A stretch of 9,757 nucleotides of DNA from the NCBI GenBank assembly GCA_035390665.1, contig DAOOUC010000018.1, positions 1-9,757 on the forward strand, written 5' to 3'. The first letter of the stretch is position 1. Each line of letters begins with the position of its first letter. Below, one piece after another: positions 457-9,757 of this stretch. Below the pieces are notes generated by a model, which had not been told where the DNA came from, made no database searches, and saw only the letters and a list, made by a program, of their open reading frames with translations. Made by a program: the position numbers and the translations under genes. This DNA is from an archaeon. Lineage in GTDB: Archaea > Iainarchaeota > Iainarchaeia > Iainarchaeales > CSSED10-239.

Positions 457-1158
457 ATGGTATTAGGGTTAAATAAAGGGCACAAATATGAGGATTTCAT
501 ATTTGATAGACTTGAAAAATTAAATTTAATGTATCCTGGGACTAAGAAAGAAGGTATGGCTGGGGGAGTTGATTCCATATTCTGTCATAATGGAAAGCCT
601 TATTCTTTGGAAATTAAAGATGGATTAGAAGCAGATTATGGGCAAAAAAAATTTAATTGGGATAATACAAATGGTTGGGACTGGTCAGTACATGATGAAG
701 TAACTGATTTTTACACAGGTCTTGGAGTTCTTTCATATGTGCAAGAAAAAAAAATTAAACCTAATCGCTATTTAAAAGAAAAATCTAAAATCACTTATGG
801 AGACGCTAAAGAAGATCAAACGAAATTTGAAGATAGAACGTTTGAAGTAACCGCTGATGCATTGTGGAAGTATTACTCGGCTAAAAATGTACATTATATT
901 CAAGTTGGAAAAGGATATGGTTTTTATCATCTTGATAAAGATATTGCAAAGCTTGGAACCCCGCAATTTAATTGCAGCTACATTTTAAGATTTAGGGCAA
1001 AATATCATGATAGAACAGATCGCCAACATAAAACATATTTGCCGACCCCCTGGAACTATAGTTTTTTTGCAGTACTAAAAGTTAAAACTAAACCAATACC
1101 ATCTAAATATAATATAGAAAAAAGTGACGGACAAGAATTACCACCAATAAATCCTTAA
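457..1158 (+). CDS. Putative type II restriction endonuclease (PD-(D/E)xK fold candidate), partner of the adjacent C5 methyltransferase
   Basis: 233-aa ORF with SD GGTGA 4 nt upstream of the ATG. It is convergent with, and only 10 nt from, the C5-MTase gene. It carries a PD-(D/E)xK-like signature, GGVD39-x12-E52-I-K54 (VDSIFCHNGKPYSLEIKD), with E12 available on a preceding helix. I could not recognise a specific enzyme family or specificity. Confidence 0.6.
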   Translation: MVLGLNKGHKYEDFIFDRLEKLNLMYPGTKKEGMAGGVDSIFCHNGKPYSLEIKDGLEADYGQKKFNWDNTNGWDWSVHDEVTDFYTGLGVLSYVQEKKIKPNRYLKEKSKITYGDAKEDQTKFEDRTFEVTADALWKYYSAKNVHYIQVGKGYGFYHLDKDIAKLGTPQFNCSYILRFRAKYHDRTDRQHKTYLPTPWNYSFFAVLKVKTKPIPSKYNIEKSDGQELPPINP

Positions 1159-2909: not shown

Positions 2910-3035
2910 AAAAATCAAGAATTATTATTTTCCGGGCTTTCCCCAATATTCATTATACTTTTCTATTGAAAACCTTACTTCATTTTTTTTAAGTTTCTAA
3001 ATTAATGCTTTTTCTAAATCTATATTGTTTCTATT

Positions 3036-3800
3036 TCAATTTATTATAATTACATCATCAATATCTGCAATTTTTTTGTTATTATAATATATAGAAACTC
3101 TTACAATATAGTTACCTGCCGAGGTTATTTTAATTGGACCCTGGTCTGTGCCAATTATAAGAATTGTATCTGTTTCACTAAAATCATCATATCCGGCTAA
3201 TGCAACAGAATACATTTGTTCGTCTTCAGGATACATATAATCTACTAAAATATTATTTATCTTAGAATCATATGAGTGAATCAATTTGTTATTTAAATAA
3301 ACGCTGGATTTCGTAAGGAATTTATCTAAATCTAATTTTGTACATCCTGAATTTTCTATATATATGGGATAATAATATATCCAGCCTTCATTTAATGAAG
3401 GATAATATTTATATATATTAGATTTGTCTAAAAATTGATTTTTTTCAAAAGCATTATATATAGATATCTTTTCATAATTTTTATTTTCTAATTTTGCACA
3501 AAAAGCATCATTAATTATATTTTTTTGACTATCTAAATATGATATTATATTATCACATTCTTCTTGGTTGTTTTTAATATCTCCATTAAAACATTGAAAT
3601 TTATAAATCGGCTTATCAATATAAATCTTATTCTCAACTTCTTTAGTTTTATATTCAATTTTTGCAGGACATGTTGAGCAATTTAATTCTGGGCAATTAC
3701 AATCTTTATTTAATATAGAAAATAAGATTATAAAAAATATTAAAATACCTACAATTAATGGAATACCCCACCAAGTTTTAAACCAATTATTTTTATTCAT
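3036..3800 (-). CDS. Signal-anchored, Cys-rich exported protein of unknown function (third gene of the operon)
   Basis: 254 aa. It has an N-terminal hydrophobic anchor (WWGIPLIVGILIFFIILFSIL) followed immediately by a CNCPELNCSTCP cysteine cluster and an N/Y/I-rich, probably beta-rich, domain. AAGGA lies 9 nt upstream of the ATG, and the gap to the upstream gene is only 19 nt. No family recognised. Confidence 0.6.
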   Translation of the reverse strand: MNKNNWFKTWWGIPLIVGILIFFIILFSILNKDCNCPELNCSTCPAKIEYKTKEVENKIYIDKPIYKFQCFNGDIKNNQEECDNIISYLDSQKNIINDAFCAKLENKNYEKISIYNAFEKNQFLDKSNIYKYYPSLNEGWIYYYPIYIENSGCTKLDLDKFLTKSSVYLNNKLIHSYDSKINNILVDYMYPEDEQMYSVALAGYDDFSETDTILIIGTDQGPIKITSAGNYIVRVSIYYNNKKIADIDDVIIIN

Positions 3801-3819
3801 ATATTTTTCCTTTTATATT

Positions 3820-4416
3820 TTATAACCAATGTTTCTTTACCCAATTAATTATTTTTTCTTTTAAATAAAATTCCATATATAATACAAATCCAATTAGGAA
3901 TATTATGGAAATTGGAATAAATATCTTAAATACAGAAACCATTCCCATATATAAAAAAATAAAAACTAGAATAAAGAATAGTGTGGCTAAACAACCATAA
4001 GCTCCCCATATCCAAAAAGAAATTATACTTTCTTCTTCAATTTTCTTTTTTTTAGAACAACTTATATAATGTTTAGTAAGTAATTTTTCTGACACAAACT
4101 TAAATTCACAATATTTACACACAAAGTTTGATTCTCGTATCTTTGTATTTACTTCTGGAACTTCCTCATTTTTATCAGAAATAAGCCCTAAATCTAATTC
4201 TATATCTTCTATCTTTGAATTTAATATTATTGATCTTACTATTCCTACAATTAAAACCACAAATGCTATAATCCATTCTAAACTGAATTCAATTCTCAAA
4301 TTTTTAAAAGTAAATAACGGTACAAATAATAAAATAAGTATTGCAATTATAACCATTATGGCATTACCTAATCGTTGATTTTTTAACAATTTTAATTTTT
4401 GTTCAGATTTATTCAA
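3820..4416 (-). CDS. Four-TM membrane protein with a classical C2H2-type (C2HC) zinc finger in the central loop (second gene of the operon)
   Basis: 198 aa. Hydrophobic segments lie at about aa 19-37, 48-66, 130-158 and 163-185. The loop carries F-V-C-x2-C-x3-F-x5-L-x2-H-x3-C (aa 98-120, nt 4057-4125). The start is TTG, supported by AAAGGTG 5 nt upstream; the next Met falls inside TM1. Confidence 0.6.
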   Translation of the reverse strand: MNKSEQKLKLLKNQRLGNAIMVIIAILILLFVPLFTFKNLRIEFSLEWIIAFVVLIVGIVRSIILNSKIEDIELDLGLISDKNEEVPEVNTKIRESNFVCKYCEFKFVSEKLLTKHYISCSKKKKIEEESIISFWIWGAYGCLATLFFILVFIFLYMGMVSVFKIFIPISIIFLIGFVLYMEFYLKEKIINWVKKHWL

Positions 4417-4460
4417 AACAACACCTTTTTTTATAAAATATTATATTAGAATGTATATTT

Positions 4461-5483
4461 TTATATTCGTATTAATTCTTTTAACCCGTTTCTGTCTATT
4501 AATTTAATATTATTTGAATGAGCTAATTTCATTGCTGGTTTTGAAAAATAATTGTTTGTAATAACAACCCCTTCATCAGCAGAATAATGCTTTACTGCGG
4601 CAACAATTTCTTGTACTGCTTTTTCTCCCACAGTATTTGACCAACATTTTGCTTGAATTACTGTTTTTTTACCATATTTTTCTAAAACTAAATCTGCACC
4701 ATAATCTGTTGATTTTGGAGTATCTTTAACAGAATATCCTTTCTTTTTATAGATTTCAATTAATAGATTTTCAAAATCTACACCAGATAATAAATCAATT
4801 CTTTCTAATGTTATAGATTTATTTGGTGTTTTATATTTTTCATCTAAATATTTTAATTTTTGGTTTTTAGAATAGTCATTAATATCTAATAATATATCCG
4901 ATTGTTCTTTAAATATTTTCTTACTTTTTAAATATTCTTTAAAAATACAAAGCAACATTTCATTTTTTTCATTTGGATAATTCAGATCAACATATGTACC
5001 TAAATAAGAATTATAATTGCTTTTAATAGATTTACTTAATTGATTGAACATCTCTTTTTGCATTTTAGAGTTTATTTCTAATATAATTATATCTTTTAAA
5101 TCACTATCTGATAAATTCACTCCTTTGCTTTCTAATAATTGAGACAAATCTTCTATTTTAGCCTCTGGAAACCCCCTTTTATTTATATAATCGTTATAAT
5201 TTACTTCTTGCGATATGAAATTAGAAATAATCTTTTTTGTAGAATTATTAAGAGTTTCATAATTATTAATTAATTTCTGGTTTTTCTTTTCGGCTATGTC
5301 CAAGTTAAAATATAACATTGCAAGATAAGTTATTAAGAGAATTAAAAACAAGCTAAATACAATAATACTCGCCGAAGAAAGAACAAAAAAAGTTATTAAT
5401 ACAGATAATGCGACTGCCTTTAATTTTTTGTCTTGCGTTTTCCAAGATTTTCTTATTTTATTAAAAAAATTACTCGTAATCAT
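4461..5483 (-). CDS. Membrane-anchored protein with a C-terminal Mrr-type restriction endonuclease domain (Mrr_cat-like; first gene of the operon)
   Basis: 340 aa. A 37-residue hydrophobic hairpin (aa 23-59) is followed by a K/N/E-rich helical linker. The C-terminal ~110 aa (about nt 4476-4808) read VDFENLLIEIYKKKGYSVKDTPKSTDYGADLVLEKYGKKTVIQAKCWSNTVGEKAVQEIVAAVKHYSADEGVVITNNYFSKPAMKLAHSNNIKLIDRNGL. This follows the Mrr_cat pattern (FE.l...l....Gy.v......D.G.D........k..iQ.K......vg...v.e..ga......d.g..it...F...A...A....i.L.d...l), including the D...QxK catalytic arrangement. Confidence 0.75.
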   Translation of the reverse strand: MITSNFFNKIRKSWKTQDKKLKAVALSVLITFFVLSSASIIVFSLFLILLITYLAMLYFNLDIAEKKNQKLINNYETLNNSTKKIISNFISQEVNYNDYINKRGFPEAKIEDLSQLLESKGVNLSDSDLKDIIILEINSKMQKEMFNQLSKSIKSNYNSYLGTYVDLNYPNEKNEMLLCIFKEYLKSKKIFKEQSDILLDINDYSKNQKLKYLDEKYKTPNKSITLERIDLLSGVDFENLLIEIYKKKGYSVKDTPKSTDYGADLVLEKYGKKTVIQAKCWSNTVGEKAVQEIVAAVKHYSADEGVVITNNYFSKPAMKLAHSNNIKLIDRNGLKELIRI

Positions 5484-5560: not shown

Positions 5561-6385
5561 TTACTTTATACTCTTTCTTACTTCTTGATAGAGCTTATTG
5601 GCTTTCGTCATTTTCTTTTTTATGTCTGCTAGAGAAGAAATCTTGTAAAGGTCTTCTAGTTGCTCTAATATTGCGCGCGAGCCCGAGCGAAACCGGCTCT
5701 TTGGGATGTTATCTTTGGAGATGCCGGAAAGATGATAACCAGATTTGGTTGGAGTGTATCTAAGCCTAATAAGCTCTACTAATGGAATTAATATGTATTT
5801 CTGATATGCAGCAAAGGATTGAAGAAAATGATTACGATTTATTTCTTTTTCTACCCAAACTTGAAAGAAACTATTGGGCGCGAGAACCATTGCGCGCGAG
5901 CTGAGCGAAACCGGCTCACCGAAACCGGCTCTATCTAAAGCTTTTATTTTTTCTTCTGTGTCTTTCTTTAACTTTTTCTTGTCTAGTTTCTTAAACTTAA
6001 TAACTTTTGTTTTATCAAAAATAATAGAAACCTTTTCATCCTCATAACCAGAAGTATACCAAAAGACACGAGAGTGTTTTTCTATACATACATCTATTAC
6101 AAGAAACTTAGAACTTCCCTTTAAATGATAAAACTTTTGCCTAATCTTTGGATGACTATGTTCTTTTTCAAAAGAATAATCAATATTTCCTATATTTTCT
6201 AATAGCTTCTCTATTTTCTTAAATGCTTTAGATACATAATTATCTTCTACATCTATCCATATATCAATATCTGAGTATTTATCTACTCTACCATGAGCAT
6301 CTGCACCTTCAAGCCAACAAGCATAGACTTTTGGGTCCTTTTCTAGTTCTTTAAGGCTAGAGATTATGGTTTTACGAGATATCAT
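5561..6385 (-). CDS. Pol-beta-superfamily nucleotidyltransferase (aminoglycoside/lincosamide-NTase-like layout)
   Basis: 274 aa. The NTase signature G[SA]-x10-DhDh is present as LEGADAHGRVDKYSDIDIWIDV, with a third acidic strand FLVIDVCIE. The N-terminal layout resembles ANT(6)-type adenylyltransferases (LEGSxxxxxxxDxxSDxDI). AGGAG lies 8 nt upstream of the ATG. The C-terminal half carries two GC-rich in-frame repeat insertions. Confidence 0.7.
   Translation of the reverse strand: MISRKTIISSLKELEKDPKVYACWLEGADAHGRVDKYSDIDIWIDVEDNYVSKAFKKIEKLLENIGNIDYSFEKEHSHPKIRQKFYHLKGSSKFLVIDVCIEKHSRVFWYTSGYEDEKVSIIFDKTKVIKFKKLDKKKLKKDTEEKIKALDRAGFGEPVSLSSRAMVLAPNSFFQVWVEKEINRNHFLQSFAAYQKYILIPLVELIRLRYTPTKSGYHLSGISKDNIPKSRFRSGSRAILEQLEDLYKISSLADIKKKMTKANKLYQEVRKSIK
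5671..5700. repeat. GC-rich repeat unit, copy 1, inside the NTase ORF
   Basis: ttgcgcgcgagcccgagcgaaaccggctct is 21/30 G+C in a gene that is otherwise about 25% GC. It shares an exact TTGCGCGCGAGC (12 nt) and an exact GAGCGAAACCGGCTC (15 nt) with copy 2, separated by a 1-nt indel. Confidence 0.65.
5876..5932. repeat. GC-rich repeat unit, copy 2, with internal partial duplications, inside the NTase ORF
   Basis: The sequence is gggcgcgagaaccattgcgcgcgagctgagcgaaaccggctcaccgaaaccggctct. It contains the full unit plus an extra CGAAACCGGCTC and an extra GCGCGAG half-unit. It lies 219 nt from copy 1 in the same orientation. Confidence 0.65.
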
Positions 6386-6437
6386 ATACTATCTCCTATA
6401 AGAAATATTTAATAACTCTTTTGTTTCTAGGTTATTT

Positions 6438-7160
6438 ATGACAAATTTAAAAAATATAAAGCTTGTTGCCTTTGATATAGGGGATACTCTTCATCAATTT
6501 TCTCATCCTGCTATGTTACAGAAATGCTATGAAGCAGAAATTAAGGTTTTAAGAAGGGCAGGATTAAAATTTAAGACAGAAGACTACTATTTAGTAGCTG
6601 AAAGAATATGGAGAGAGGCTAGAAAGAAAAAATCTGAAAAAGATAATCTTTTTGTTCCTAAACAGATTCTTAGATATCTTGGATATCCTAATAGATTAGA
6701 TCTTGCAGAGAAGATGGGAGAGTCTTTTGTAAAGGTTTCTAAAAAATATCTTCTAAAAACAAAAAGAACCATGCCTGGTGCTATTGATATTATTAAATAT
6801 TTACATAAGAAAGGATATATTCTTGGGGTAATTAGTGATACAGAAAATCTTGGACCTAAAAAGTGGTTAAAAGAAGCGAATATTTACAATTATTTTAAAA
6901 TAATTATTCTTTCTTGTGAAGTTGGTGGGAGAAAAGCTTCTCAAAAGCCATTTATTGCTTTTAAAAAATTAGCAAATAAGCAATTTAAGATTAAACCATC
7001 AGAGATAGTAATGGTTGGCAATCTATCTGTTGATATGGATGCAAAAAAACAAGGCTTTAGAACAATATTATTCGATCCAATATGTCAAAACACAAAACAT
7101 TTTCTTTATCAGCCAGATATTAAAATTAAAACTCTAAAAGATATTAAAAAATATTTATAA
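6438..7160 (+). CDS. HAD-superfamily hydrolase (subfamily IA-like)
   Basis: 240 aa. Motif I is VAFDIGDTL, a variant in which the second position of DxDxT is Gly. Motif II is LGVISDT, the motif III Lys lies in ASQKPF, and motif IV is MVGNLSVDMDAKKQG. It is divergent from the NTase gene across a 52-nt spacer, with AGGT 9 nt upstream of the ATG. Confidence 0.7.
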   Translation: MTNLKNIKLVAFDIGDTLHQFSHPAMLQKCYEAEIKVLRRAGLKFKTEDYYLVAERIWREARKKKSEKDNLFVPKQILRYLGYPNRLDLAEKMGESFVKVSKKYLLKTKRTMPGAIDIIKYLHKKGYILGVISDTENLGPKKWLKEANIYNYFKIIILSCEVGGRKASQKPFIAFKKLANKQFKIKPSEIVMVGNLSVDMDAKKQGFRTILFDPICQNTKHFLYQPDIKIKTLKDIKKYL

Positions 7161-7838: not shown

Positions 7839-7900
7839 TTAATTCTTTTTCTTTCTTACTTCCATAAAGAGCTTATTGGCTTTCTTGATTTTTTTTATTA
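7839..7900 (-). pseudogene. Relic of the 3' end of an NTase paralogue in the SDR/methyltransferase spacer
   Basis: 7851-7892 aligns without gaps to 5573-5614 (the 3' end of the NTase gene) at 36/42 identity. Read in the homologous frame it gives ...KKIKKANKLFMEVRKKKN*, against ...KKKMTKANKLYQEVRKSIK* in the intact gene. The stop codon falls at exactly the equivalent position (7839-7841 versus 5561-5563). No upstream body of the gene remains, because the SDR stop is at 7906. Confidence 0.5.
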
Positions 7901-8712: not shown

Positions 8713-8805
8713 GAATTATTACTGACTTCTACGACTACTTACTTGGTTGCTTTTCTTCTTTTTCTAAGTCTTTTAGATAGAGATGATTGAATTACGAGAT
8801 ATCAT
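8713..8805 (-). pseudogene. Miniature internally deleted relic of an NTase paralogue that retains both gene ends
   Basis: On the minus strand, the 14 nt starting at 8805 are identical to the NTase start (ATGATATCTCGTAA). The relic reads MISRNSIISI*, against MISRKTIISSLK in the intact gene. The 3' part carries AAAAAGAAGAAAAGCAACCAAGTAAGTAG, which resembles the NTase end (AAAAAGAAAATGACGAAAGCCAA...AAAGTAAGTAG), and runs straight into the conserved 30-nt block. About 93 nt stand in for an 825-nt gene. Confidence 0.5.
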
Positions 8806-8864
8806 AAATGATCAAATAGAACAATTTAACTTAAAAGTGCTTTAAATATCTAACTGACAGAAAC

Positions 8865-9665
8865 TCAATTAGATTTAGCTTCCAAAACACATATTTGCAT
8901 AAAATAATCCGGAGAATTTCTTAGAATATTACAATCTTCTGGTTTCATTTTTGTTGCTTGAACAAATTTAGCAACGCAAGCCTCTTGATTAATCCTATAG
9001 TCATAAATCTTATTTAAATAACTACATTCAAAAATATCATTTTTTTCTATAGCTCTATTCGTAACACAATCTTGATCATTTAAACAATTATATCTTTTAT
9101 GTTCCCATTGTTCATATATTACTGCAGATAGAAATATACACAAAACTACTGCGGTTATTATTATGCCTAATACTCTTTTTTTATCATCAAATATCTTATA
9201 GACTCCATATACCAATAATACCAACAATCCAATAACTATAAAATATACTACATAATTATCAACAGCTACAGAAAACAATGAATAGAAGGTTTTTTTCAAA
9301 AATAAAGGAACAGTCGTTGATAATAAAGTATCAAATCTCCAATTAAACATAATTCTAAATAAAAATATGATTAAGAAAATTAAATCAAATACTATTACTA
9401 TAAAATAAAATTTATTAGACTTATCTTCATTTTTAATTACTTTTTTTAAATATTTAACTCCTAGTAGTATGGTAGGTAACATTGCAAATAAAAGAAAGAT
9501 TAATGTAGGCAATAATGTTATTTTTAATTCACAACTACTAAATGCACACCAAAAACTAACAAAAGCTATAACTAAAACTTGCCATAAGACTAATATGATT
9601 AAATCCCAACCGCCAGTCTTAACTTTAATCTCTTGTTTTGATTCATCCATATCTGATCTTTCCAT
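8865..9665 (-). CDS. Polytopic membrane protein with a C-terminal Cys-rich soluble domain, unknown function
   Basis: 266 aa with five to six hydrophobic segments (for example WDLIILVLWQVLVIAFVSFWCAF, LLPTLIFLLFAMLPTILLGV, FYFIVIVFDLIFLIIFLF, VVYFIVIGLLVLLVYGVY, VLGIIITAVVLCIFLSAVIY). The final ~80 aa hold seven Cys in a spaced pattern (YNCLNDQDCVTN...FECSYL...EACVAKF...EDCNIL...MQICVLEA). GGTAAG lies 7 nt upstream of the ATG. No family recognised. Confidence 0.6.
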   Translation of the reverse strand: MERSDMDESKQEIKVKTGGWDLIILVLWQVLVIAFVSFWCAFSSCELKITLLPTLIFLLFAMLPTILLGVKYLKKVIKNEDKSNKFYFIVIVFDLIFLIIFLFRIMFNWRFDTLLSTTVPLFLKKTFYSLFSVAVDNYVVYFIVIGLLVLLVYGVYKIFDDKKRVLGIIITAVVLCIFLSAVIYEQWEHKRYNCLNDQDCVTNRAIEKNDIFECSYLNKIYDYRINQEACVAKFVQATKMKPEDCNILRNSPDYFMQICVLEAKSN

Positions 9666-9757
9666 TTTAATCTTACCAAATTATAGTTTAAAACTATTTA
9701 AATATCTGTCGTCTAGAAAGAGAATTAACTTTTTATGATATCTACAACTTTAGATAT

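What the first reader, a model, noticed from the sequence alone, without database searches (positions are those of the whole stretch)
3036..5483. Three-gene membrane-nuclease operon in a defence-type neighbourhood; candidate uncharacterised system
Three co-directional genes are separated by gaps of only 44 and 19 nt. They encode:
- a protein with an N-terminal TM hairpin and a C-terminal Mrr-type (Mrr_cat) nuclease domain;
- a 4-TM protein with a zinc finger in its central loop;
- a signal-anchored protein with a CNCPELNCSTCP cluster and a large non-cytoplasmic domain.

Tethering an Mrr-type nuclease to the membrane, and pairing it with two further membrane proteins, does not match any operon type I can name. 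The operon lies between a type II R-M pair plus Nudix gene on one side and a Pol-beta NTase directly upstream on the same strand (77-nt gap). That context is typical of defence islands.

A signalling NTase plus membrane/nuclease effector logic (CBASS-like) is conceivable. It is weakly supported, because the NTase looks more like an ANT(6)/KNTase-type enzyme and a separate promoter-like block lies between the genes.
Basis: partly seen in the sequence, partly recalled or inferred. Interest (0 to 1): 0.72.

Follow-up and report, generated by a model that had tools for sequence, protein, structure and literature searches.

The report
Membrane nuclease beside a mobile envelope cassette
The three neighbouring genes are real and were annotated correctly, but they are not one conserved system: a common kind of membrane-anchored DNA-cutting enzyme sits next to a separate two-gene cell-surface cassette that elsewhere travels with an integrating mobile element of related archaea.

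Summary
Observation confirmed. Three minus-strand genes lie at 5483-4461, 4416-3820 and 3800-3036, with gaps of 44 and 19 nt. The domain calls are right:
- g1: a hydrophobic hairpin plus Mrr_cat (E 2.8e-31), with E238/D264/Q277/K279 intact.
- g2: four TM segments plus a C2HC zinc finger.
- g3: a signal anchor, a Cys cluster and a beta-sandwich.

- The g2-g3 pair recurs in seven independent archaeal contigs, never with an Mrr gene.
- DNA homology (82-85%) starts exactly at the g2 start codon.
- In three contigs the pair lies one or two genes downstream of an archaeal phage-type integrase. One of these has a tRNA-Thr beside the integrase, and another has a D5-type primase-helicase.
- The g3 ectodomain is swapped by recombination (DUF4352 versus the window's domain).
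- g1's closest relatives are lone genes in unrelated contexts, and 24 of 28 carry a TM segment. A 2-TM plus Mrr_cat antiphage protein (Epona) is already published.
- The NTase is 96% nt-identical to a copy on another contig with different downstream genes, and it looks Lnu/ANT-like, not CBASS-like.

Best reading: a stand-alone membrane-tethered Mrr-type nuclease, probably defensive, juxtaposed with a mobile envelope cassette that may act in superinfection exclusion. Interest is modest.

The parts
4461..5483 (-). g1: 340-aa membrane-anchored Mrr-type (PD-(D/E)xK) nuclease
   Evidence: ORF. Pfam Mrr_cat E 2.8e-31. PADLOC hits only to the Mrr parts of ZorD, PDC-S02 and mREase_IV. NCBI annotates it as 'restriction endonuclease [archaeon]'.
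5289..5426 (-). g1 aa 20-65: 46-residue hydrophobic stretch, read as a TM hairpin with both ends in the cytoplasm
   Evidence: Kyte-Doolittle peak of 2.76 and an N-terminal flank of net charge +6. AF2 draws a single long helix at moderate confidence, so the hairpin is an inference.
4470..4790 (-). g1 aa 232-338: Mrr_cat catalytic domain with E238, D264, Q277 and K279
   Evidence: Pfam coordinates. These residues are invariant. pLDDT is 94-98. Foldseek hits MspJI, AF1548 and AspBHI.
4417..4460 (-). 44-nt g1-g2 spacer, unique to this genome, with a GGTG Shine-Dalgarno-like motif before the g2 start
   Evidence: Sequence. Homology to the other cassette copies ends at 4416-4418.
3820..4416 (-). 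g2: 198-aa four-TM protein with a C2HC zinc finger in the central, presumably cytoplasmic, loop
   Evidence: Seven homologues at 54-99% identity, none with a Pfam domain.
4051..4125 (-). g2 aa 98-122: zinc finger C100-x2-C103 ... H116-x3-C120
   Evidence: zf-C2H2 E 0.009. The L011 relative matches zf-met at E 1.3e-4. The CxxC is invariant.
3036..3800 (-). g3: 254-aa protein with a signal anchor, a Cys-rich stalk and a beta-sandwich ectodomain
   Evidence: It belongs to a family of 67 clusters at 50% identity, most of which have a lipobox.
3666..3785 (-). g3 aa 6-45: signal anchor plus the CNCPELNCSTCP cluster, the conserved N-terminal module
   Evidence: This module is retained where the C-terminal domain is exchanged.
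3039..3488 (-). g3 aa 105-254: Ig-like beta-sandwich domain with no Pfam family. Motifs are WYPSLxEG, NxGCTK, YPED and GxY.
   Evidence: AF2 pLDDT is about 90. PDB hits are weak and generic E-set folds: RhoGDI, the TMEM106B lumenal domain, FlaF and CARDB. No significant viral hit. Alignment of 16 relatives.
2910..4418 (-). The mobile g2-g3 cassette as defined by nucleotide homology to other contigs
   Evidence: blastn matches are 81.8% to L008 (window 2910-4416), 83.3% to L003 (3030-4418) and 85.4% to L004 (3686-4413).

Best explanation
The locus is a juxtaposition of two independent units, not one three-gene system.

**Unit 1: g1.** This is a stand-alone, membrane-tethered Mrr-family PD-(D/E)xK nuclease.
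- An N-terminal hydrophobic hairpin and a long helical linker hold an intact catalytic domain at the inner face of the membrane.
- It has no DNA-recognition domain. Targeting would therefore come from location: it would cut DNA that enters or lies at the membrane, or be released on membrane perturbation.
- It most likely acts as a single-gene anti-virus or anti-plasmid nuclease of the Epona / type IV-like kind.

**Unit 2: g2 plus g3.** This is a roughly 1.5-kb envelope cassette that circulates among related AT-rich archaea.
- In three contigs it lies one or two genes downstream of the integrase of an integrating element.
- g3 displays a beta-sandwich ectodomain on a Cys-rich stalk, and this ectodomain is exchanged by recombination.
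- g2 is its obligate four-TM partner, with a zinc finger facing the cytoplasm.
- The most likely role is one performed at the cell surface for the element, such as superinfection exclusion or another change to the envelope.

**Shown:**
- gene structures, folds and catalytic residues;
- conservation of the pair without the nuclease, and the homology boundary at the g2 start;
- integrase and tRNA linkage of the pair;
- the ectodomain swap;
- independence of the NTase.

**Inferred:**
- the topology of g1;
- the defence role of g1;
- the exclusion role of g2-g3;
- whether the three genes share a transcript in this genome.
For: **The pair occurs without the nuclease.**
- g2 and g3 homologues are adjacent in L003, L004, L005 (order reversed), L006, L007, L008 and L010.
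- tblastn with g1 finds nothing in any of these contigs. It hits only the three assemblies of the same sequence.
- The blastn homology block is window 2910-4418 and ends at the g2 start codon.

**The pair is linked to a mobile element.**
- The Phage_integr_3 integrase lies directly upstream of the pair in L004 (E 1.6e-27) and L006. In L010 (E 4.7e-22) it lies upstream with a DUF4064 gene in between.
- A tRNA-Thr abuts the integrase in L010.
- A D5_N/DUF5906 primase-helicase lies in L004.

**The g3 ectodomain is exchanged.**
- L007 and L008 are 98.6% identical up to about codon 55 of g3 and then diverge.
- The C-terminal domain is DUF4352 in L004, L006, L007 and L010, and the window's domain in L003, L005 and L008.
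- The same N-terminal stalk carries DUF4352, Ltp or TonB_C domains in other family members.

**Published parallels.**
- DUF4352 is the essential C-terminal domain of the membrane phage-resistance protein Mpr and is common in temperate mycobacteriophages (PMC12596739, PMC9262609).
- Ltp is a surface lipoprotein for superinfection exclusion, encoded right next to int in phage TP-J34 (PMC3952083).

**g1 looks like a solitary nuclease of a common kind.**
- 24 of 28 closest Mrr_cat relatives have a TM segment.
- The relatives P0007, P0027 and P0028 are solitary genes in unrelated neighbourhoods.
- Epona, an Mrr_cat domain fused to a 2-TM domain, has reported antiphage activity (bioRxiv 10.1101/2024.07.02.601686).
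Against: - The three genes are co-directional with 44- and 19-nt spacers, and no terminator-like site lies between them. Co-transcription, and a locally evolved functional link, therefore cannot be excluded.
- All three genes share a lower G+C content (0.23-0.24) than most neighbours (0.25-0.34). This could mean joint acquisition, although membrane proteins in AT-rich genomes are generally G+C-poor.
- The comparison set is small (seven pair-bearing contigs, most under 9 kb) and contains no complete genome.
- No experiment addresses any function.
- The window's g3 ectodomain itself has no DUF4352 or Ltp match, and its structural neighbours are generic. The exclusion role therefore rests on analogy.
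- AF2 drew g1 aa 19-91 as a single helix. If that segment crosses the membrane only once, the nuclease domain would face outward.
Confidence: 0.6

Rival explanations
1. One reading: the three genes form one membrane-based defence system. g3 senses an event at the cell surface, g2 transduces the signal across the membrane, and g1 cuts the incoming DNA.
For: - The genes are co-directional with tight spacing (44 and 19 nt), and g2 has a GGTG motif before its start, as internal operon genes often do.
- All three proteins are membrane-located.
- A restriction-modification pair lies nearby.
- The three genes share a low G+C content.
Against: - None of the seven contigs that carry the pair has g1.
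- Homology ends at the g2 start codon.
- g1's N-terminal 225 residues have no homologue anywhere.
- The TM-Mrr relatives checked in context are solitary genes.
- The trio is seen only in three assemblies of one and the same sequence.
Confidence: 0.1
2. A CBASS-like or other nucleotide-signalling system in which the upstream NTase makes a signal that activates the membrane and nuclease effectors.
For: - The NTase lies 77 nt upstream on the same strand.
- It gives weak Polbeta/NTP_transf_2 matches.
- The closest g1 relative, P0007, lies near a gene with a faint SMODS hit.
Against: - NTase matches fall below the Pfam cut-offs. Its nearest named relatives are the lincosamide nucleotidyltransferases Lnu(G), Lnu(B) and LinB (3jyy), all weak, and it has no SMODS match.
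- A 97.8% identical NTase on a 171-kb contig has different downstream genes, and DNA homology ends at its stop codon.
- g1 has no recognisable nucleotide-sensing domain such as SAVED or CARF.
Confidence: 0.03
3. The g2-g3 pair has nothing to do with conflict between genetic elements. It is an ordinary surface protein with its membrane partner, for example an adhesin or envelope-structure protein of a small episymbiotic archaeon, and only happens to be carried by an element.
For: - g3's N-terminal stalk is shared by 67 clusters of mostly lipobox proteins with many different ectodomains.
- A 2560-aa protein repeats the last 55 residues of g3 nineteen times, as adhesins do.
- Structural neighbours include the archaellum/S-layer-associated protein FlaF and CARDB.
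- In the window no element genes flank the pair.
Against: - The pair sits next to an integrase in three contigs.
- The cassette shows 82-85% nucleotide identity across different neighbourhoods.
- The ectodomain was recently exchanged by recombination.
- The alternative domains, DUF4352 and Ltp, have published roles in phage resistance and exclusion.
Confidence: 0.25
4. g1 is not a defence nuclease but a housekeeping membrane-associated DNA enzyme (for example in DNA uptake, repair or segregation), or it is an inactive REase-like module.
For: - It has a secondary match to NA-iREase1, the 'inactive' REase family (E 1.2e-10).
- One relative, P0028, sits among housekeeping genes.
- It has no specificity domain.
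Against: - The catalytic residues E238, D264, Q277 and K279 are all intact and invariant.
- The Mrr_cat match is 20 orders of magnitude better than the NA-iREase1 match.
- Distribution is patchy, and the N-terminus is an orphan sequence.
- Neighbours of relatives include a toxin-antitoxin gene, Fic, and SMODS/DUF6602 genes.
- A published antiphage protein has the same architecture.
Confidence: 0.15

Closest known systems
Epona, a single-gene antiphage protein from Vibrio cholerae integron cassettes (bioRxiv 10.1101/2024.07.02.601686)
   Same: It combines an Mrr_cat nuclease domain with a two-TM membrane domain in a single polypeptide that acts alone. g1 has the same two elements.
   Different: - Epona's membrane part is described as holin-like.
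- g1 has a roughly 160-residue helical linker between its membrane segment and nuclease domain, and its N-terminus is an orphan sequence.
- Epona is bacterial; g1 is archaeal.
Type IV (modification-dependent) restriction enzymes of the Mrr / MspJI / AspBHI kind
   Same: They share the catalytic fold and the E...D...QxK motif. The best structural matches are MspJI, AF1548 and AspBHI, and PADLOC mREase_IV models hit at E 2.5e-9.
   Different: g1 lacks any N-terminal modified-DNA reader such as Mrr_N or an SRA-like domain. In its place are a membrane hairpin and a helical region. Dependence on DNA modification is unknown.
PADLOC candidate PDC-S02 and the Mrr domain of Zorya ZorD
   Same: The profile matches cover the nuclease domain: ZorD E 1.1e-20, PDC-S02 E 4.8e-11.
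   Different: Only the C-terminal Mrr portion of each profile is matched. g1 has no SWI2/SNF2 helicase, and no ZorA, ZorB or ZorC genes are nearby. PDC-S02 is an unvalidated candidate.
Mpr of Mycobacterium smegmatis and phage DUF4352 proteins (PMC9262609, PMC12596739)
   Same: These are membrane-anchored proteins with a beta-sandwich domain, linked to temperate elements and reported to block phage at the membrane. The g3 variants in L004, L006, L007 and L010 carry DUF4352 itself.
   Different: The window's g3 has a different ectodomain with no DUF4352 match. Mpr has no g2-like partner, and its own N-terminus is the reported nuclease.
Ltp-type superinfection-exclusion lipoproteins of temperate Streptococcus phages (PMC3952083)
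   Same: They are surface-tethered proteins encoded immediately next to the integrase and expressed from the integrated element. One member of the g3 stalk family carries an Ltp domain (E 4.8e-31).
   Different: g3 in the window has no Ltp domain, is signal-anchored rather than lipidated, and always comes with a four-TM zinc-finger partner. The host is archaeal. No function has been tested.

Membership tests
Mrr_cat / PD-(D/E)xK nuclease superfamily (g1) | Profile match above the curated threshold | tested here: met
   PF04471 scores 108.4 bits against a cut-off of 21, E 2.8e-31, over aa 232-338.
Mrr_cat / PD-(D/E)xK nuclease superfamily (g1) | Catalytic acidic residues and lysine (E...D...QxK) present | tested here: met
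   E238, D264, Q277 and K279 are invariant in a 23-sequence alignment.
Mrr_cat / PD-(D/E)xK nuclease superfamily (g1) | Alpha-beta-beta-beta-alpha-beta core fold | tested here: met
   The AF2 model has pLDDT 94-98 with the expected order of elements. Foldseek hits MspJI, AF1548, AspBHI and Hjc.
Classical type IV Mrr restriction enzyme | N-terminal domain that reads modified DNA | tested here: not met
   There is no Pfam, NCBIfam or PDB match in aa 1-225, and the model is all-helical with a membrane segment.
Classical type IV Mrr restriction enzyme | Cleavage that depends on DNA methylation | not testable with these tools
   This needs biochemistry.
Epona-type single-gene defence (Mrr_cat plus 2 TM) | Mrr_cat fused to a two-TM segment in one protein that functions alone | tested here: inconclusive
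   The architecture is present and relatives are solitary genes.
Epona-type single-gene defence (Mrr_cat plus 2 TM) | Protection against virus infection | not testable with these tools
   This needs a challenge experiment.
Zorya (ZorD) | SWI2/SNF2 helicase fused to the nuclease, with ZorA, ZorB and ZorC neighbours | tested here: not met
   Only positions 931-1060 of the 1071-position ZorD profile are matched. The window contains no helicase or Zor genes.
CBASS or other NTase-effector signalling operon | A CD-NTase/SMODS-type cyclase | tested here: not met
   The NTase gives only sub-threshold Polbeta/NTP_transf_2 matches and weak Lnu/LinB similarity, with no SMODS hit.
CBASS or other NTase-effector signalling operon | Conserved adjacency of cyclase and effector | tested here: not met
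   A 97.8% identical NTase in L017 and L018 is followed by unrelated genes, and homology ends at the stop codon.
A conserved three-gene system (g1-g2-g3) | Co-occurrence of the three genes in independent genomes | tested here: not met
   Seven pair-bearing contigs lack g1, and the three Mrr-relative loci checked in context lack g2 and g3.
A conserved two-gene cassette (g2-g3) | Adjacency of both genes in independent contexts | tested here: met
   The pair is adjacent in L003, L004, L005, L006, L007, L008 and L010, with different upstream and downstream genes. Nucleotide identity is 72-85%.
DUF4352 / Mpr-like proteins (g3) | A DUF4352 domain | tested here: not met
   The window's g3 gives no Pfam match at E up to 0.1. 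Only the variants in other loci carry the domain.
Ltp-type exclusion lipoprotein (g3) | An Ltp repeat domain and a lipobox | tested here: not met
   The window's g3 has neither an Ltp match nor a lipobox. The resemblance lies only in surface tethering and integrase adjacency.
Type II restriction-modification pair (context, 457-2299) | A methyltransferase plus a cognate endonuclease | tested here: inconclusive
   The C5 methyltransferase is clear (E 3.4e-73). The convergent 233-aa ORF has a D39-x12-E52-x-K54 motif and a PHROG hit of unknown function, but no Pfam, PDB or plasmid match.

The most novel reading that the evidence does not exclude
The g2-g3 pair is an undescribed archaeal envelope module carried by integrating elements. 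A surface-displayed, recombinationally exchangeable beta-sandwich (g3), together with a four-TM zinc-finger partner (g2), would block entry of competing viruses or elements. In this genome the cassette has landed directly behind a membrane-tethered Mrr nuclease, so the three proteins would now cooperate as a barrier at the membrane, combining surface recognition with cleavage of entering DNA.
Probability: 0.12. Interest if true: 0.7.

Novelty: new member of a known kind. Interest (0 to 1): 0.3.

Why it matters
**What this result changes.**
- It removes a false lead. The trio is not a new multi-gene defence system, and a membrane-tethered Mrr nuclease is a common architecture that has already been published.

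**What remains useful.**
- g1 extends the Epona-like class of membrane nucleases to a very AT-rich archaeal lineage.
- The g2-g3 cassette is an uncharacterised, element-borne surface module with a swappable ectodomain. Almost nothing is known about how integrated elements of such archaea protect or mark their hosts, so the cassette is a reasonable candidate for a first archaeal analogue of prophage superinfection-exclusion proteins. That idea is still only an analogy.

Tried and rejected
**Searches that found nothing or were uninformative.**
- Scans for g2 relatives in GTDB species genomes and in IMG/VR found nothing. The element's primase-helicase also found nothing in IMG/VR. The lineage, and whether the element is viral, therefore remain unassigned.
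- A GTDB scan with the NTase found only a 35% identical Bacillota homologue.
- The sigma-70 promoter and terminator scan was uninformative in this AT-rich, probably archaeal sequence: 35 sites against 29 expected.
- Aligning the regions upstream of g2 across loci showed no shared promoter motif.
- No att-like direct repeat of the tRNA-Thr was found in L010. No flanking repeats bound the 3036-5483 segment, and the window has no tRNA.
- Rfam gave no hit in the window.

**Sequence and structure searches.**
- PDB sequence searches gave nothing for g1 or for the 233-aa ORF.
- tblastn against plasmid and phage collections gave nothing for the 233-aa ORF or for g2.
- The viral fold search of g3 gave no hit at E <= 0.001.

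**Ideas considered and set aside.**
- Low G+C (0.23) as proof of joint horizontal acquisition. Other membrane or AT-rich genes in the window reach 0.25, so it is not decisive.
- g1 as an inactive REase-like module. Rejected because the catalytic residues are intact.

Full report
**1. What is there**

The window is 27% G+C. NCBI holds its proteins under 'MAG TPA: archaeon'. The same sequence occurs in three other assemblies (L001, L002, L009).

Three ORFs lie on the minus strand:
- g1, 5483-4461, 340 aa
- g2, 4416-3820, 198 aa
- g3, 3800-3036, 254 aa

The spacers are 44 and 19 nt, and an NTase gene lies 77 nt upstream of g1.

**2. The three proteins**

g1 is an Mrr-type nuclease with a membrane segment.
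- Its C-terminal domain matches Mrr_cat at E 2.8e-31 (aa 232-338).
- E238, D264, Q277 and K279 are invariant across 23 relatives.
- The AlphaFold model has pLDDT 94-98 over aa 225-340.
- Its best PDB neighbours are MspJI, AF1548, AspBHI, Cdn1/Can2 and Hjc. The PD-(D/E)xK fold is therefore secure, and the enzyme is probably active.
- Residues 20-65 form one 46-residue hydrophobic stretch after a flank of net charge +6. I read this as a hairpin that leaves the nuclease in the cytoplasm. AF2 drew a single long helix at moderate confidence, so this topology is an inference.
- Residues 66-225 are helical with low confidence and have no homologue anywhere.

g2 is a four-TM protein. Its central loop carries C100-x2-C103-x12-H116-x3-C120. 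This gives a weak zf-C2H2 match, the CxxC is invariant in relatives, and one relative reaches the zf-met threshold.

g3 is a surface protein in three parts.
- It has a signal anchor and then the CNCPELNCSTCP cluster.
- From about aa 105 it has a confidently modelled beta-sandwich (pLDDT about 90).
- That domain has no Pfam family. Its structural neighbours are only generic E-set folds such as RhoGDI, the TMEM106B lumenal domain, FlaF and CARDB, and there is no significant viral hit.
- Relatives begin with lipoboxes, which places the domain outside the cell.

**3. Is it one system?**

It is not, on the evidence available.
- g3 has few close relatives and g2 has seven. Their contigs show g2 and g3 next to each other in L003, L004, L006, L007, L008 and L010, and in reversed order in L005.
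- tblastn with g1 finds nothing in any of these contigs.
- At the DNA level the window matches them at 72-85% identity across 2910/3030 to 4416/4418. Homology stops at the g2 start codon, so g1 and the 44-nt spacer are outside the shared block.
- g1's own relatives share only the nuclease domain. Of these, 24 of 28 have a TM segment.
- The three examined in context are lone genes in unrelated neighbourhoods, without g2- or g3-like partners: P0007 (no TM segment) and the membrane forms P0027 and P0028.

The trio is known only from a single sequence.

**4. What the pair is**

The pair belongs to an integrating element.
- In L004 and L006 it lies directly downstream of an archaeal phage-type integrase. 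In L010 it lies downstream with a DUF4064 gene in between (Phage_integr_3, E 1.6e-27 and 4.7e-22).
- In L010 a tRNA-Thr abuts the integrase.
- L004 also carries a D5_N/DUF5906 primase-helicase.
- A DUF4064 membrane protein often accompanies the pair.

The g3 ectodomain is exchangeable.
- L007 and L008 are 98.6% identical through g2 and the first 55 or so codons of g3, and then diverge completely.
- The result is a DUF4352 ectodomain in L004, L006, L007 and L010, and the window's ectodomain in L003, L005 and L008.

The N-terminal stalk is a widely used tether.
- A profile search of 1.8 billion representatives found 67 clusters.
- Most share only the N-terminal module: a lipobox or signal anchor, KYQCxDGS motifs and CPELDCSxCP.
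- That module is joined to varied C-terminal domains. These include DUF4352 (5 members), an Ltp domain (1) and TonB_C (1), plus about a dozen members carrying the window's domain.
- One g2-like protein (L011) is itself fused to an extracellular Cys-rich region. This is consistent with g2 and g3 working together at the surface.

**5. How it most likely works**

For g1, the most economical reading is a self-contained membrane-tethered nuclease. It lacks a DNA reader domain, so it would be targeted by its position at the membrane.
- Published parallels are Epona, an Mrr_cat domain fused to a two-TM domain with antiphage activity in E. coli (bioRxiv 10.1101/2024.07.02.601686), and more loosely the type IV enzymes.
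- PADLOC profiles for ZorD, PDC-S02 and mREase_IV hit only the nuclease part.

For g2-g3, the evidence points to a surface function carried out for an integrated element:
- integrase adjacency;
- a transferable cassette;
- an exchangeable ectodomain;
- alternative ectodomains (DUF4352 and Ltp) with published roles in phage resistance and exclusion.

On the last point, DUF4352 is essential in the membrane phage-resistance protein Mpr and is common in temperate mycobacteriophages (PMC9262609, PMC12596739). Ltp is the exclusion lipoprotein encoded next to int in phage TP-J34 (PMC3952083).

Superinfection exclusion is my leading guess, at roughly one in three. It rests on analogy, because the window's own ectodomain matches neither family. 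An ordinary adhesin or envelope role is a serious rival.

**6. The NTase and the neighbourhood**

- The NTase matches Polbeta/NTP_transf_2 only below the curated cut-offs. It weakly resembles the lincosamide nucleotidyltransferases Lnu(G), Lnu(B) and LinB, and it has no SMODS match.
- Its gene is 96.4% identical at the DNA level to a copy on a 171-kb contig. Homology ends at the gene's two ends, and the downstream genes differ. The CBASS-like idea is not supported.
- The 'defence island' description is half right. There is a clear C5 methyltransferase with a convergent 233-aa ORF that has a D-x12-ExK motif but no family match. There is also g1 itself.
- The Nudix and NTase PADLOC hits are marginal.
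- Beyond the NTase gene the neighbours look like housekeeping genes (a HAD hydrolase, a methyltransferase and an SDR), followed by an unassigned multi-TM protein.

**7. What remains open**

- Co-transcription of g1-g2-g3 cannot be excluded. The spacers are short, there is no terminator-like site between the genes, and g2 has a GGTG motif before its start.
- The three genes share a low G+C content (0.23-0.24).
- The comparison set is small and consists of short metagenomic contigs.
- I therefore leave about a one-in-ten chance that the juxtaposition has become functional in this genome.

**8. Verdict**

g1 is a new member of a known kind of protein. The g2-g3 cassette is uncharacterised and mildly interesting as an element-borne archaeal surface module. 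Overall interest is 0.3.

Noticed in passing
window 5668-5699 and 5873-5931 (inside the NTase gene, minus strand): A roughly 30-nt G+C-rich element, GAGCCGGTTTCGCTC(N)GCTCGCGCGCAAT, occurs twice in frame, with an extra partial copy (none expected by chance). The 24-nt copy encoding SRFRSGSR is absent from cluster members that are otherwise at least 93% identical and from a distant Bacillota homologue. The larger insert is absent from the distant homologue. These look like polymorphic in-frame mini-insertions. There is no Rfam hit, and among the 19 loci fetched the element is found only in this gene.
   Followed up: partly
window 5561-6393 versus L017 9993-10825: The NTase gene alone is 96.4% nt-identical to a copy on a 171-kb contig, with sharp edges at the gene ends. 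The neighbouring HAD gene is only 73% identical and lies 7 kb away on that contig. This suggests a gene-sized recent transfer or rearrangement.
   Followed up: partly
window 9678-9757, 8751-8851, 6404-6453 and 7852-7895: Short, mostly intergenic stretches resemble sequences in L017. Window 9678-9757 is 96% identical to the 80 nt just upstream of the NTase gene there. This is either a repeated promoter-like sequence or a 3.3-kb indel between the two genomes.
   Followed up: no
L007 1142-2464 versus L008 1-1320: The two contigs are 98.6% identical through the DUF4064 gene, g2 and the first 55 or so codons of g3, and are then unrelated. This is a clean recombination breakpoint that swaps the g3 ectodomain.
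   Followed up: yes
L011 131-1030: A 299-aa g2-like protein (two TM segments, a C2H2 zinc finger and further TM segments) is fused to an extracellular Cys-rich C-terminus that matches the Dicty_CTDC repeat (E 4.4e-10).
   Followed up: partly
P0063 (2560 aa, from the representative library): This giant protein has 19 stretches that match the last 55 or so residues of the g3 profile. The distal strands of the g3 ectodomain resemble a repeat unit of a large surface protein.
   Followed up: no
window 457-1158 (+): A 233-aa ORF convergent with the C5 methyltransferase has a D39-x12-E52-x-K54 motif and matches PHROG 26930 of unknown function (E 2.9e-17). It has no Pfam, NCBIfam, PDB or plasmid match. 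It is probably the cognate endonuclease of an unclassified family.
   Followed up: partly
window 8865-9665 (-): A 266-aa multi-TM protein has a C-terminal Cys-rich tail and no family match.
   Followed up: no
L012 263-1800: The closest relative of the g1 nuclease domain (P0007, 542 aa, no TM segment) sits downstream of a gene with a faint SMODS hit and a DUF6602 gene. DUF6602 is the domain of the published antiphage protein Damona.
   Followed up: no
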